The notes under the pieces: model-generated | Told to the model about the DNA's origin: nothing | The model's input: the letters and a program-made list of their open reading frames with translations, nothing else | Database searches by the model: none | Shown: in pieces, positions 57,483-58,849 of the stretch | Layout: each line of letters starts with the position of its first letter | Position numbering within the stretch: the stretch's first letter is position 1 | Assembly (NCBI GenBank): GCA_031388805.1 | Contig: JANMRZ010000112.1 | Span: 17,885-81,884, forward strand | Direction of reading: 5' to 3' | DNA length: 64,000 bases | Source: Chryseolinea sp. | GTDB taxonomy: Bacteria; Bacteroidota; Bacteroidia; Cytophagales; Cyclobacteriaceae | Made by a program: the position numbers and the translations under genes

Positions 57483-58001
57483 GACCTACCTTAATTGTAA
57501 TCTAAAATACAAAACAGTTCGCTGATCTGGATTTTTCAATTCGGATTTTAAAAGAGTATCACTTCCAAAATGGGATGTAATAAGAATAGCACGAACTTCC
57601 TTCAGGTTAACAAAAAGTCTTAAAATTTAATAATCTGAACGGTTTTCAGGTTAGTTCTTTCACAGACAATGCAAAATAGATCAGTCTCTGTATCCATTCG
57701 AAACAAGTTCAAATGCAATTCAATGATCAATAAAAAAGCGTGCAAGTTTTGAAAATCTGTAAATGCTCTTTCTTTGCGGGGTGAAATGATTTGAACATTC
57801 AATCACACTACCTTTGACGGGATGCAAGGCATTCCTTTACTTGTGAATTTACTTTTGTGATGATTGTGAGTAGAGTCGTGACGCAAGATTACTAGTGCTT
57901 CCAACGTAATAACAGTGCAACGATGCACTGTAGAAAATAATGTAAACATGATACATAACGAAGTGAATAAGAGATTATCTTCCTAAAACAATCTCTACAA
58001 G

Positions 58002-58076
58002 TCGAGGTGAGATGATTCGAACATCCGACCCCCACGTCCCTAACGTGGTGCGCTAACCGGGCTGCGCTACACCTCG
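58002..58076 (-). tRNA. tRNA-Pro, anticodon AGG as written, CCA not encoded
   Basis: Complete cloverleaf: CGAGGTG/CACCTCG + A73, D-arm GCGC/GCGC, anticodon arm CCACG-TTAGGGA-CGTGG, T-arm GGATG-TTCGAAT-CATCT; C1-G72 and A73 are Pro-like. Confidence 0.9.
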
Positions 58077-58192
58077 ATAAACTAAACCATCATTCTATTC
58101 AAGCATCAATTAATCTTGCAAATAGCAAGATTATACACTCAAATATTACGGGTTGCAATTATAATAATTATGATTTTAACCGACAAAGAAGG

Positions 58193-58849
58193 CTATTTCT
58201 TCTTCTTGTCCTTTTTCAGTGAAGTGAAAAACTTGGCCCAATTAAAAGGGTTAAGAAAAGGATTGGTAACAGGCTGGTAGCGGCTGGTAGCAGAACTTGC
58301 CCATTGATTTAGATAATAACGTTGGTTTTGATATCCATCCATCGGTGTAGACTTCATCATCAACGCAAGTAATTCTGCGTTTAAATTCTTTTTATCAATC
58401 TGCCCGTCTTCCAATGGAATATTAAGCGCTAAAACTGCTTGCTTAAAAACCTCTTCAGTTGGGAAAGGCATAATCACAACTTCTGGTAACATGGTTGTAT
58501 CCTGAACAAGGGTAACAATAATGGTTTGATATTCAGTTGCGTTTTCAGGAACAACAAATTGTTGACGCACAAATCCTACAAAGCTGATTATGATTTCATC
58601 ACCAACTAAAACCGGCATTGAGAAAAAACCTACGCTGTTTGTGGTTTGTCCGCGACCAGCTTTGGGAACATAAACGTGAACACCTGGTAATGTCATCACA
58701 CTGTCTCTGTCATCCTGACCCAACACAACTCCGGATAATTGAATGACACGCTTTTGCTGAGCAAAAACAGTTTGTGTCATGGTAAAAACCGTAAAGGTTA
58801 TTATAAAAAGGGCGATTAAATTGAAACGGCTCGACTTCACTTCCTTCAT
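58193..58849 (-). CDS. Carboxypeptidase-regulatory-like domain protein (conserved Bacteroidota hypothetical)
   Basis: Signal peptide; IQLSGVV...LPGVHVYV...TTNSVGFFSMPV...ISFVGF; LPEVVIMPFPT. Confidence 0.75.
   Translation of the reverse strand: MKEVKSSRFNLIALFIITFTVFTMTQTVFAQQKRVIQLSGVVLGQDDRDSVMTLPGVHVYVPKAGRGQTTNSVGFFSMPVLVGDEIIISFVGFVRQQFVVPENATEYQTIIVTLVQDTTMLPEVVIMPFPTEEVFKQAVLALNIPLEDGQIDKKNLNAELLALMMKSTPMDGYQNQRYYLNQWASSATSRYQPVTNPFLNPFNWAKFFTSLKKDKKKK

What the first reader, a model, noticed from the sequence alone, without database searches (positions are those of the whole stretch)
58002..58076. tRNA-Pro with an AGG anticodon (A34), very unusual for bacteria
Seen: the anticodon loop reads TT-AGG-GA (anticodon at 58039-58041) in an otherwise perfect cloverleaf. 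Known: bacterial A34 tRNAs are largely limited to Arg(ACG), deaminated to inosine by TadA, with scattered exceptions; bacterial Pro tRNAs are normally UGG/GGG/CGG. Inference: either an expanded-specificity TadA makes I34 on tRNA-Pro, or unmodified A34 reads the CCN box, possibly arising from a CGG isoacceptor by C34A. A single-base assembly error is the main alternative.
Basis: partly seen in the sequence, partly recalled or inferred. Interest (0 to 1): 0.75.

Follow-up and report, generated by a model that had tools for sequence, protein, structure and literature searches.

The report
Conserved proline tRNA with A-starting anticodon
This is a real, conserved proline tRNA gene whose anticodon starts with A (AGG); it stands in for the usual GGG tRNA in many Cytophagales and Lachnospiraceae, so it is a recurring natural oddity and not an assembly error, and whether the A becomes inosine is still open.

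Summary
Window 58002-58076 (minus strand) encodes an intact tRNA-Pro with anticodon AGG; the wobble A34 is at 58041.

It is not an assembly error. The same gene occurs in about 19 of 25 same-genus genomes and in 10 of 22 families of the order (Cytophagales, Bacteroidota). Across 21 distinct versions all 441 stem pair cells still pair, and 10 of 21 pairs show compensatory changes.

- **Role:** AGG and GGG proline tRNAs never share a genome: 37 vs 40 of 301 Cytophagales and 39 vs 44 of 141 Lachnospiraceae. AGG therefore fills the GGG slot beside tRNA-Pro(UGG).
- **Dispensable:** one same-genus genome has a decayed copy at the syntenic site and only UGG.
- **Origin:** this lineage's gene is closest to CGG-type tRNAs, which points to C34A. 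A second Cytophagales type looks GGG-derived.
- **A34 or I34:** E. coli and Salmonella leave tRNA-Pro(AGG) unmodified. Against that, TadA residues at the RNA-binding surface near loop nucleotides 33-35 (phosphate backbone) and base 35 co-vary with AGG in both phyla.

This is a new member of a known kind, with moderate interest.

The parts
58002..58076 (-). tRNA-Pro(AGG) gene, 75 nt to the discriminator A73 at 58002; no encoded CCA
   Evidence: ARAGORN. Rfam RF00005 at 58.9 bits, full length. In 21 distinct orthologues, 441 of 441 helix cells pair and 10 of 21 pairs show double changes.
58039..58041 (-). Anticodon AGG; the wobble A34 is the T at + strand 58041
   Evidence: Read directly. U33, A34, G35, G36 and G37 are invariant in the alignment of 21 orthologues.
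58036..58044 (-). Last pair of the anticodon stem plus the anticodon loop U32 U33 A34 G35 G36 G37 A38. The loop differs from this genome's own tRNA-Arg(ACG) loop, CUACGGA, only at positions 32 and 35.
   Evidence: Sequences printed; loop read.
58092..58186 (-). Three overlapping sigma-70-like promoter matches upstream of the tRNA; the nearest is TTGCAA-18-TAGAAT, ending 16 nt before the mature 5' end. Weak evidence only.
   Evidence: Consensus scan: 5 matches in the region against 3.1 expected by chance. Bacteroidota promoters follow a different consensus, so this is a candidate only.

Best explanation
This is a working, chromosomally inherited tRNA-Pro in a Cytophagales bacterium.

- **Origin:** the gene descends from a CGG-type proline tRNA gene that changed C34 to A.
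- **Role:** CCU is the main CCY codon of this 60% A+T genome. The tRNA is auxiliary to tRNA-Pro(UGG), which alone can serve the whole CCN box.
- **A34 (inferred, by a narrow margin):** I judge that A34 stays unmodified. It would pair with U by Watson-Crick geometry and with C by an A+:C-type wobble, as shown for the Salmonella and E. coli proL G34A tRNAs.

What is shown: the gene is intact and conserved, it is mutually exclusive with GGG, it is dispensable, and it is CGG-like. What is inferred: expression, charging by ProRS, m1G37, the set of codons read, and the state of A34.
For: **Gene and structure**
- ARAGORN and Rfam both call the tRNA.
- In 21 distinct Cytophagales orthologues, 441 of 441 pair cells are standard pairs, 10 of 21 pairs show compensatory changes, and the anticodon with U33 and G37 never varies.

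**Conservation**
- The gene is present in about 19 of 25 same-genus genomes, and AGG occurs in 10 of 22 families of the order.
- The upstream neighbour gene is shared with three same-genus loci, and no mobile-element genes lie nearby.

**Replacement of GGG**
- In 301 Cytophagales genomes, 37 have AGG only, 40 have GGG only, and none has both (Fisher p = 0.007).
- In 141 Lachnospiraceae genomes the counts are 39, 44 and 0 (p = 3e-8).

**Auxiliary role**
- 224 of the 301 Cytophagales genomes have neither AGG nor GGG.
- Same-genus genome G017 (98% complete) carries a decayed copy at the syntenic site and only tRNA-Pro(UGG).

**Origin from CGG**
- Identity to CGG tRNAs is 84-89%, against 72-80% for GGG and UGG; the anticodon stem is identical; the gene sits among CGG tRNAs in a tree with position 34 masked.

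**Codons served**
- Genome-wide: CCU 31%, CCC 17%, CCA 31%, CCG 21%.
- In the ribosomal-protein cluster: CCU 42, CCC 4, CCA 54, CCG 23 codons. CCU is favoured and CCC avoided, as expected for an A:U reader.

**Unmodified A34**
- tRNA-Pro(AGG) made by G34A is unmodified, is present at wild-type level and is functional in E. coli (bioRxiv 10.64898/2026.05.15.725136) and in Salmonella (Chen et al. 2002, as cited in PMC3711424).
- An orthogonal tRNA with anticodon AGG in E. coli showed no inosine, although AAG and AUG versions did, and it read all four CCN codons (PMC11066159).
- Earlier notes from this scan report tRNA-Pro(AGG) in archaea. That archaea have no TadA or other A34 deaminase is from the literature (PMC8007984).
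Against: - **No direct data:** I had no RNA data for this organism, so expression and the state of A34 are untested.
- **Transfer from model organisms is uncertain:** the experiments showing no inosine all used enterobacterial TadA. Its pocket for base 35 is narrowed by R26 and R152 (PMC10586758). This genome's TadA has Gly and Ile at those positions, like S. aureus TadA, which is said to have possible flexibility at position 35.
- **The loop resembles a TadA substrate:** the Pro loop UUAGGGA matches the extended streptococcal TadA motif YUAMGRA at every position except 35. This genome's own tRNA-Arg(ACG) also has G37.
- **TadA co-varies with AGG in Cytophagales:** the otherwise near-universal Lys (E. 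coli K110) is kept in only 8 of 36 AGG+ genomes against 53 of 67 AGG- genomes.
- **TadA co-varies with AGG in Lachnospiraceae:** Gly at E. coli R26 is found in 29 of 30 AGG+ genomes against 10 of 29 GGG genomes.
- **Codon use in other AGG genomes:** as a group, AGG genomes use more CCC in ribosomal-protein genes (16-23%) than GGG or neither genomes (8-10%). This fits an I:C reader better than an A:C reader.
Confidence: 0.5

Rival explanations
1. The gene and its role are as in the best explanation, but A34 is deaminated to inosine by a TadA that has widened its specificity from C35 to also accept G35. The tRNA would act as tRNA-Pro(IGG), reading CCU, CCC and weakly CCA. It would be a third bacterial I34 tRNA after Arg(ICG) and Leu(IAG).
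For: - **TadA is present:** a single TadA orthologue was found in all 52 Cytophagales searched first, and in 53 of 57 more at a stricter E <= 1e-30.
- **The loop is close to a TadA substrate:** the Pro loop UUAGGGA differs from this genome's Arg(ACG) loop CUACGGA only at positions 32 and 35. It fits YUAMGRA, the motif of the S. pyogenes TadA that edits Leu(AAG) (PMC11472039), except at position 35.
- **The pocket looks open:** this genome's TadA has Gly at the S. aureus G22 position and Ile at the E. coli R152 position, which is the open-pocket form (PMC10586758).
- **Co-variation in Cytophagales:** Lys at the E. coli K110 position, a phosphate contact to nucleotides 33-35, is kept in 8 of 36 AGG+ genomes against 53 of 67 AGG- genomes. 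Fisher p = 4e-8; Cochran-Mantel-Haenszel test stratified by family p = 3e-7. The loss coincides with AGG in at least 5 separate lineages on a ribosomal-protein tree.
- **Co-variation in Lachnospiraceae:** Gly at the residue whose backbone contacts base 35 is found in 29 of 30 AGG+ genomes against 10 of 29 GGG genomes (p = 2e-7), across at least 6 clusters of the TadA tree.
- **Codon use:** AGG genomes use more CCC in ribosomal-protein genes.
Against: - **G35 is the base TadA is known to refuse:** E. coli and Salmonella TadA leave AGG anticodons unmodified in three independent studies, although E. coli TadA partly edits AAG and AUG anticodons (PMC11066159; bioRxiv 10.64898/2026.05.15.725136; PMC3711424).
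- **The co-variation is not phylogeny-corrected:** counted by rough lineages it is about 6 of 14 against about 9 of 55 (p about 0.06).
- **There are exceptions:** eight AGG+ genomes keep the Lys.
- **The two phyla do not agree:** they show different residues, and neither signal replicates in the other.
- **This genome's own codon use:** its highly expressed genes almost lack CCC (4 of 123 Pro codons).
- **Archaeal counter-example:** archaea lack TadA (literature), yet this scan's earlier notes report that some also keep tRNA-Pro(AGG).
Confidence: 0.42
2. The gene is intact in sequence but silent or on its way to loss. It would be a neutral leftover of a CGG duplicate, contributing little to translation, with UGG doing all the work.
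For: - The tRNA is dispensable: same-genus genome G017 carries a pseudogene at the same locus and only tRNA-Pro(UGG).
- Several same-genus genomes lack the gene.
- Most Cytophagales manage with UGG alone.
- No expression data were available.
Against: - Where selection lapsed, in G017, the gene decayed quickly, with indels, a broken T arm and a lost acceptor strand.
- Elsewhere the gene has stayed perfect across families: 441 of 441 paired cells, 10 pairs with compensatory changes, and an invariant anticodon loop.
- Strict mutual exclusion with GGG in two phyla is not expected of a neutral relic.
Confidence: 0.05
3. A34 is a sequencing or assembly error, or a contaminating contig, and the true gene is CGG, GGG or UGG.
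For: The genome is a 210-contig draft with 2.7% estimated contamination. The reads could not be inspected.
Against: - The 75-nt sequence is identical in two other genomes and in an unrelated MAG.
- AGG is present in every orthologue across genus, family and order.
- The tRNA lies in the interior of the 64-kb window, and its upstream neighbour gene (and a further gene beyond it) is shared with three same-genus loci.
Confidence: 0.01

Closest known systems
Salmonella enterica proL207 and E. coli proL G34A: tRNA-Pro(GGG) mutated to tRNA-Pro(AGG). Sources: Chen et al. 2002 J Mol Biol, as cited in PMC3711424; Raval, Lim, Gallie and Agashe 2026, bioRxiv 10.64898/2026.05.15.725136.
   Same: Same anticodon, same amino acid and same slot, replacing the GGG isoacceptor beside UGG. 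No fitness cost. It is the direct model for an unmodified A34 reading CCU and CCC.
   Different: Those are laboratory mutants made by G34A in a GGG backbone. Here the gene is natural, fixed across many genomes, and in this lineage derived from a CGG-type backbone. The TadA here also differs, with an S. aureus-like open pocket, so 'unmodified' may not carry over.
tRNA-Leu(AAG), read as IAG, of Lactobacillales (Oenococcus oeni, Streptococcus pyogenes, oral streptococci). Sources: Rafels-Ybern et al. 2019, via PMC8072771; PMC11472039; PMC13249217.
   Same: It is a natural, clade-wide A34 tRNA of a four-codon box that replaced the GNN isoacceptor in A+T-rich bacteria. Its anticodon has the form ANG, with G36 and G37. 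TadA co-adapted to it.
   Different: It carries a different amino acid and has A35, not G35. I34 is proven there, in vivo and in vitro; here it is untested. S. pyogenes TadA keeps the Lys that most AGG+ Cytophagales have lost.
Unmodified natural A34 tRNAs: tRNA-Thr(AGU) of Mycoplasma capricolum, and tRNA-Thr(AGU) and tRNA-Ser(AGA) of O. oeni. Sources: PMC3711424; PMC8072771.
   Same: They are natural A34 tRNAs of four-codon boxes that work without inosine.
   Different: Their anticodons lack G36, the strongest TadA determinant, whereas tRNA-Pro(AGG) has it. The Mollicutes cases go with genome reduction; this genome is 6.3 Mb.
tRNA-Pro(AGG) of Lachnospiraceae, and of DPANN/ARMAN archaea, as noted earlier in this scan (e1-5205258, e1-3103750, e1-5199209, e1-5231679).
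   Same: Same anticodon, same loop UUAGGGA in Lachnospiraceae, and the same mutual exclusion with GGG, which I re-measured here.
   Different: They come from a different phylum and have an independent origin: about 73% identity to a Lachnospiraceae example. I found no published description of these clades in the held library.

Membership tests
Bacterial elongator tRNA-Pro (ProRS substrate) | Canonical cloverleaf with a 7/4/5/5-bp arm layout and a T loop UUCGAAU | tested here: met
   Rfam RF00005 at 58.9 bits against a gathering score of 29, full length. ARAGORN. 100% of pair cells are standard in 21 orthologues.
Bacterial elongator tRNA-Pro (ProRS substrate) | Identity elements G35, G36, A73 and G72 (with C1-G72), and G37 as the m1G37 site. 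These elements are from established knowledge of E. coli-type ProRS and TrmD. | tested here: met
   All are present in the sequence and invariant in the orthologues. Charging and methylation themselves could not be tested here.
TadA substrate (tRNA with I34) | Core loop sequence U33-A34-C35-G36 (PMC10586758; PMC11472039) | tested here: not met
   The loop is UUAGGGA, so position 35 is G, not C. The other positions (Y32, U33, A34, G36, R37, A38) fit the extended streptococcal motif YUAMGRA.
TadA substrate (tRNA with I34) | A tadA gene in the same genome | tested here: met
   G000:C157:49586-50026, 147 aa, with HAE and PCxxC motifs. Best NCBIfam match is NF008113 TadA at 136.8 bits, just under the 150 cutoff. 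Best PDB match is S. aureus TadA 2B3J, E = 1e-35.
TadA substrate (tRNA with I34) | A read as G at position 34 in cDNA, or deamination in vitro | not testable with these tools
No wet-lab assay was possible.
Natural four-box tRNA(ANN) that replaces the GNN isoacceptor (Leu-AAG and Thr-AGU type; bioRxiv 10.64898/2026.05.15.725136) | The ANN tRNA is present clade-wide and the matching GNN tRNA is absent | tested here: met
   AGG only, GGG only and both: 37, 40 and 0 of 301 Cytophagales; 39, 44 and 0 of 141 Lachnospiraceae. This genome has UGG and AGG only.
Natural four-box tRNA(ANN) that replaces the GNN isoacceptor | Origin by G34A in the GNN gene | tested here: not met
   This lineage's AGG gene groups with CGG isoacceptors (84-89% identity, identical anticodon stem), not with GGG. 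A second Cytophagales type, with loop UUAGGGU, does group with GGG genes.
Auxiliary (dispensable) tRNA | The gene can be lost while a four-way reader remains | tested here: met
   G017 has a pseudogene at the syntenic locus and only tRNA-Pro(UGG). 224 of 301 genomes of the order have neither AGG nor GGG.

The most novel reading that the evidence does not exclude
In Cytophagales and Lachnospiraceae, TadA has co-evolved with tRNA-Pro(AGG) and now accepts G35, making tRNA-Pro(IGG). This would be a third bacterial wobble-inosine tRNA that arose independently in two phyla. The adaptive changes would lie on the RNA-binding surface near nucleotides 33-35: loss of the near-universal Lys (E. coli K110) in Cytophagales, and an enforced Gly at E. 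coli R26 / S. aureus G22 in Lachnospiraceae.
Probability: 0.42. Interest if true: 0.75.

Novelty: new member of a known kind. Interest (0 to 1): 0.55.

Why it matters
Reviews and a 2026 experimental survey describe A-starting anticodons other than Arg(ACG) as almost absent from prokaryotes. That survey calls the absence of harmless four-box tRNA(ANN) a paradox (bioRxiv 10.64898/2026.05.15.725136; PMC8007984).

Here a proline example is fixed in roughly an eighth of sampled Cytophagales genomes and a quarter of sampled Lachnospiraceae genomes. It always stands in place of GGG and has at least two separate origins in one order. These clades are poorly covered by GtRNAdb, so the rarity is partly a sampling effect.

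The finding also gives natural material for two open questions:
- Does unmodified A34 really serve a four-codon box in the wild?
- How does TadA widen its substrate range, the step that led to eukaryotic ADAT?

The TadA co-variation gives concrete residues to test. TadA specificity at the base after the target adenosine also bears on adenine base editors, which are derived from TadA.

Tried and rejected
- **Literature:** Rafels-Ybern et al. 2019 (Mol Biol Evol), the key survey, is not held. I used what later papers say about it. Searches for natural bacterial tRNA-Pro(AGG) or Pro(IGG) returned only eukaryotic or engineered cases.
- **Codon usage as a discriminator between I34 and A34:**
  - In this genome's ribosomal-protein cluster CCC is almost absent (4 of 123).
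  - The same avoidance is seen in relatives that have a GGG tRNA, so it says little.
  - The group-level excess of CCC in AGG genomes (Mann-Whitney p about 0.001) is not phylogeny-corrected, and this genome does not share it. I rejected it as decisive.
- **A single diagnostic TadA residue:**
  - No alignment column separates AGG+ from AGG- cleanly.
  - The Cytophagales signal (loss of K110) is absent in Lachnospiraceae, where all keep the Lys.
  - The Lachnospiraceae signal (Gly at R26) gives no contrast in Cytophagales, where Gly is also the rule in GGG genomes and the UUAGGGU-type AGG genomes mostly lack it.
- **Mobile-element or phage origin of this copy:** rejected, because the neighbours are ordinary chromosomal genes and the upstream gene is syntenic in the genus.
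- **Weak Rfam hit SSRC8_1 at 58144-58218:** 20 bits against a gathering score of 80; treated as chance.
- **Tool limit:** I reached the genome through a handles search instead.

Full report
**1. What is there**

ARAGORN finds a single tRNA in the 64-kb window, tRNA-Pro(agg), at 58001-58076 on the minus strand. The Rfam tRNA model matches 58002-58076 end to end at 58.9 bits against a gathering score of 29.

Read, the RNA is CGAGGUG-UA-GCGC-AGCCCGGUUA-GCGC-A-CCACG-UUAGGGA-CGUGG-GGGUC-GGAUG-UUCGAAU-CAUCU-CACCUCG-A.
- It has the bacterial proline identity set: C1-G72, A73, G35, G36.
- It has G37, the m1G37 site, and no encoded CCA.
- The anticodon is at + strand 58039-58041, with the wobble A34 at 58041.

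**2. The genome**

The window lies in a 6.3-Mb, 210-contig, 40% G+C assembly. Record titles of near-identical tRNA loci place it in Cytophagales, Bacteroidota. The labels are 'Cyclobacteriaceae bacterium', Chryseolinea and Ohtaekwangia, and one MAG contig (L045) carries the identical 75 nt.

ARAGORN on the whole assembly gives 40 tRNAs. The proline tRNAs are UGG and AGG only, with no GGG and no CGG. The only other A34 tRNA is Arg(ACG). The two closest genomes with the identical tRNA (G010, G021) also have UGG and AGG only.

**3. Not an error, and under selection**

- About 19 of 25 same-genus genomes carry an orthologue, and every one has AGG.
- In 21 distinct Cytophagales versions, all 441 helix cells are standard pairs and 10 of 21 pairs show changes on both sides. 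Sliding the 3' partner by 1-3 columns drops pairing to 35-55%. U33, AGG and G37 never vary.
- The upstream CarboxypepD_reg-like gene is shared with three same-genus loci. The other neighbours are a PAS histidine kinase, a LytTR response regulator, a HAD hydrolase and an aldehyde dehydrogenase. None is a mobile-element gene.

**4. Distribution**

Of these, 119 hold a tRNA-Pro(AGG) by ARAGORN. They fall mainly in two groups: Cytophagales and Lachnospiraceae with related Bacillota.

I then sampled each group evenly (for Cytophagales; for Lachnospiraceae).

| Sample | AGG only | GGG only | Both | Neither | Fisher p |
|---|---|---|---|---|---|
| 301 Cytophagales genomes, at least 90% complete | 37 | 40 | 0 | 224 | 0.007 |
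| 141 Lachnospiraceae genomes | 39 | 44 | 0 | 58 | 3e-8 |

In Cytophagales, AGG occurs in 10 of 22 families. AGG and GGG are alternatives for one slot, and AGG always sits beside UGG.

The pattern needs a standard T loop and a 5-nt variable loop, so some tRNAs are missed and these counts are lower bounds.

**5. It is auxiliary**

Most Cytophagales have only UGG, with or without CGG.

In same-genus genome G017 (98% complete), the syntenic locus holds a decayed copy. It has a 2-nt and a 1-nt insertion, a broken T arm, a lost 3' acceptor strand and the loop CUAAAGA. The only proline tRNA found in that genome is UGG.

So the tRNA can be lost, and when selection lapses it decays fast. That makes its perfect conservation elsewhere meaningful.

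**6. Origin**

This gene is most similar to CGG-type proline tRNAs.

| Compared with | Identity |
|---|---|
| CGG-type tRNAs; 89% is between the AGG and CGG genes of one genome, G002 | 84-89% |
| GGG-type tRNAs | 72-80% |
| This genome's own UGG tRNA | 72% |

- The anticodon arm CCACG-UUAGGGA-CGUGG equals the CGG arm CCACG-UUCGGGA-CGUGG except at position 34.
- In a tree with position 34 masked, the own-type AGG genes (loop UUAGGGA; families f1, f8, f15, f21) nest among CGG genes.
- A second type (loop UUAGGGU; f3, which includes about 1-Mb genomes labelled Amoebophilaceae, plus f7 and f19) groups with GGG genes that have loop UUGGGGU.
- The sequences are short, so the tree is weak. It still supports at least two origins in the order: C34A here and G34A elsewhere.
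- The Lachnospiraceae genes are a further origin, at about 73% identity.

**7. Codons served**

| Set | CCU | CCC | CCA | CCG | Source |
|---|---|---|---|---|---|
| Genome-wide, ORFs of at least 200 aa | 31% | 17% | 31% | 21% | |
| 20 conserved genes of the ribosomal-protein cluster (codon counts) | 42 | 4 | 54 | 23 | |

CCU and CCA are preferred and CCC is avoided. That fits an A:U reader working beside UGG. But relatives with a GGG tRNA avoid CCC just as much, so this does not tell A34 from I34.

Across 47 genomes with enough data, AGG genomes use more CCC (16-23% of Pro codons) than GGG or neither genomes (8-10%). The Mann-Whitney p is about 0.001 and is not corrected for phylogeny. UUAGGGU-type genomes put 76% of their Pro codons in CCY.

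**8. A34 or I34?**

*For an unmodified A34*
- G34A versions of proL in Salmonella and E. coli give an unmodified, fully functional tRNA-Pro(AGG) (PMC3711424, citing Chen et al. 2002; bioRxiv 10.64898/2026.05.15.725136).
- An orthogonal tRNA with anticodon AGG in E. coli showed no inosine, although the AAG and AUG versions did, and it read all four CCN codons (PMC11066159).
- In O. oeni only Arg and Leu A34 tRNAs carry I34, while Thr and Ser do not (PMC8072771).

*For I34*
- The genome has one TadA: C157:49586-50026, 147 aa.
- Its own tRNA-Arg(ACG) loop is CUACGGA. The Pro loop differs from it only at positions 32 and 35, and both have G37.
- The streptococcal TadA that edits Leu(AAG) accepts YUAMGRA (PMC11472039). 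The Pro loop fits this except at position 35.
- In the S. aureus complex, base 35 is solvent-exposed and contacted only by the backbone of G22. E. coli narrows that pocket with R26 and R152 (PMC10586758). This genome's TadA has Gly and Ile at those positions, like S. aureus.

**9. A new lead: TadA co-varies with AGG**

I aligned TadA from 103 Cytophagales genomes.
- The Lys equivalent to E. coli K110 / S. aureus K106 is one of the side chains holding the phosphates of loop nucleotides 33-35 (PMC10586758). It is conserved in all five solved bacterial TadAs.
- That Lys is present in 53 of 67 AGG- genomes but only 8 of 36 AGG+ genomes. Fisher p = 4e-8; Cochran-Mantel-Haenszel test stratified by family p = 3e-7.
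- On a tree built from 26 ribosomal-cluster proteins, the loss coincides with AGG in at least five lineages:
  - the window's own clade, which has Gln;
  - G062 (Gln), whose sister G036 has Lys;
  - the f7 clade (Asp, Ala, Ser or His), whose sister G029 has Lys;
  - G172 (Ala), whose sister G042 has Lys;
  - the f3 AGG genera (Gln, Asn, Arg or Leu), against Lys in the AGG- genus of f3.
- Eight AGG+ genomes keep the Lys, mostly single, atypical tRNAs, and about nine AGG- lineages lost it. Counted by rough lineages the contrast is about 6 of 14 against 9 of 55, p about 0.06.

As an independent replicate I compared TadA from 30 AGG+ and 29 GGG Lachnospiraceae genomes.
- The Lys is kept in all of them.
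- The top column is the residue at E. coli R26 / S. aureus G22, which lines the base-35 pocket. It is Gly in 29 of 30 AGG+ genomes against 10 of 29 GGG genomes (p = 2e-7).
- The AGG+ sequences fall in at least six clusters of the TadA tree. GGG lineages wander among Gly, Asp, Glu, Met, Asn, Lys, Arg and Leu.

A constraint to the smallest residue looks more like making room for a purine than like excluding it. Since IGG would still read only proline codons, I see no reason for selection to avoid editing.

The limits are real. The two phyla show different residues, neither signal replicates in the other, and neither test is properly phylogeny-corrected. I treat this as suggestive.

**10. Verdict**

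- **Certain:** the tRNA-Pro(AGG) gene is real, conserved and selected. It takes the place of tRNA-Pro(GGG), is auxiliary to UGG, and is CGG-derived in this lineage.
- **Open:** the state of A34. My odds are about 50% unmodified, 42% inosine, 5% silent or decaying, and 1% error.
- **Novelty:** bacterial A34 tRNAs other than Arg are known (Leu, Thr, Ser), and tRNA-Pro(AGG) is known as a laboratory mutant. I found no paper in the held library that describes it as a natural, clade-wide tRNA of Cytophagales or Lachnospiraceae. The newest GtRNAdb survey names only Leu-AAG and Thr-AGU as frequent (bioRxiv 10.64898/2026.05.15.725136, section 15). Earlier notes of this scan already flagged the Lachnospiraceae and archaeal cases. 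It is therefore a new member of a known kind, of moderate interest, with a testable and more novel reading attached: a TadA widened to accept G35.

Noticed in passing
L026:1501-1575 (G017:C192, same genus): At the syntenic locus, with the same upstream CarboxypepD_reg-like and HAD genes, the tRNA-Pro(AGG) gene has decayed to a pseudogene. It has insertions, a broken T arm and a lost 3' acceptor strand, and ARAGORN finds no tRNA. That genome has only tRNA-Pro(UGG).
   Followed up: yes
G000:C159:71579-71653 (own genome, outside the window): This genome's tRNA-Arg(ACG) has the anticodon loop CUACGGA, with G37 where E. coli tRNA-Arg2 has A37. The resident TadA therefore already accepts G37, as the Pro(AGG) loop would require.
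   Followed up: partly
G000:C157:49586-50026 (own genome, outside the window): The only TadA orthologue has Gln where solved TadAs from five bacteria have a conserved Lys (E. coli K110). It scores 136.8 bits against NCBIfam NF008113, just under the 150-bit cutoff.
   Followed up: yes
G014:C42:11834-12434; G018:C451:3897-4366; G226:C1:1138427 and 1168354; G193 (two contigs); L072 and L128 (Bacillota): Some genomes carry two copies of tRNA-Pro(AGG). Some are in tandem a few hundred bases apart, and one of the G014/G018 copies matches only partly. This suggests recent duplication or a decaying duplicate.
   Followed up: no
L040, L075, L086, L099, L110, L120, L148, L150 (genome-contig loci): Sporadic tRNA-Pro(AGG) genes with an encoded CCA end occur on contigs labelled Succinivibrio, Faecalibacterium, Enterobacteriaceae, Bacteroidaceae and Christensenella. 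Their backbones are unlike those of the two big clades. They may be phage- or element-borne tRNAs, or binning contaminants.
   Followed up: no
Cytophagales family f3 (about 0.7-1.9 Mb genomes; relatives labelled Amoebophilaceae), e.g. G026:C34:30924-30953: Reduced, probably endosymbiotic genomes of about 1 Mb keep two proline tRNAs, UGG and AGG, in several genera. The sister genus g25 keeps only UGG. This is surprising retention of an 'auxiliary' tRNA under genome reduction.
   Followed up: partly
window 58144-58218 (+): A weak Rfam match to the Streptococcus sRNA SSRC8 (20.4 bits against a gathering score of 80, E = 0.59) lies in the A+T-rich spacer upstream of the tRNA. It is almost certainly chance.
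   Followed up: no
whole assembly G000: Only 40 tRNAs were found. Ile(GAU), Ala(UGC) and Ser(GCU), among others, are missing, probably because the rRNA operons and some tRNA clusters did not assemble in this 210-contig draft.
   Followed up: no
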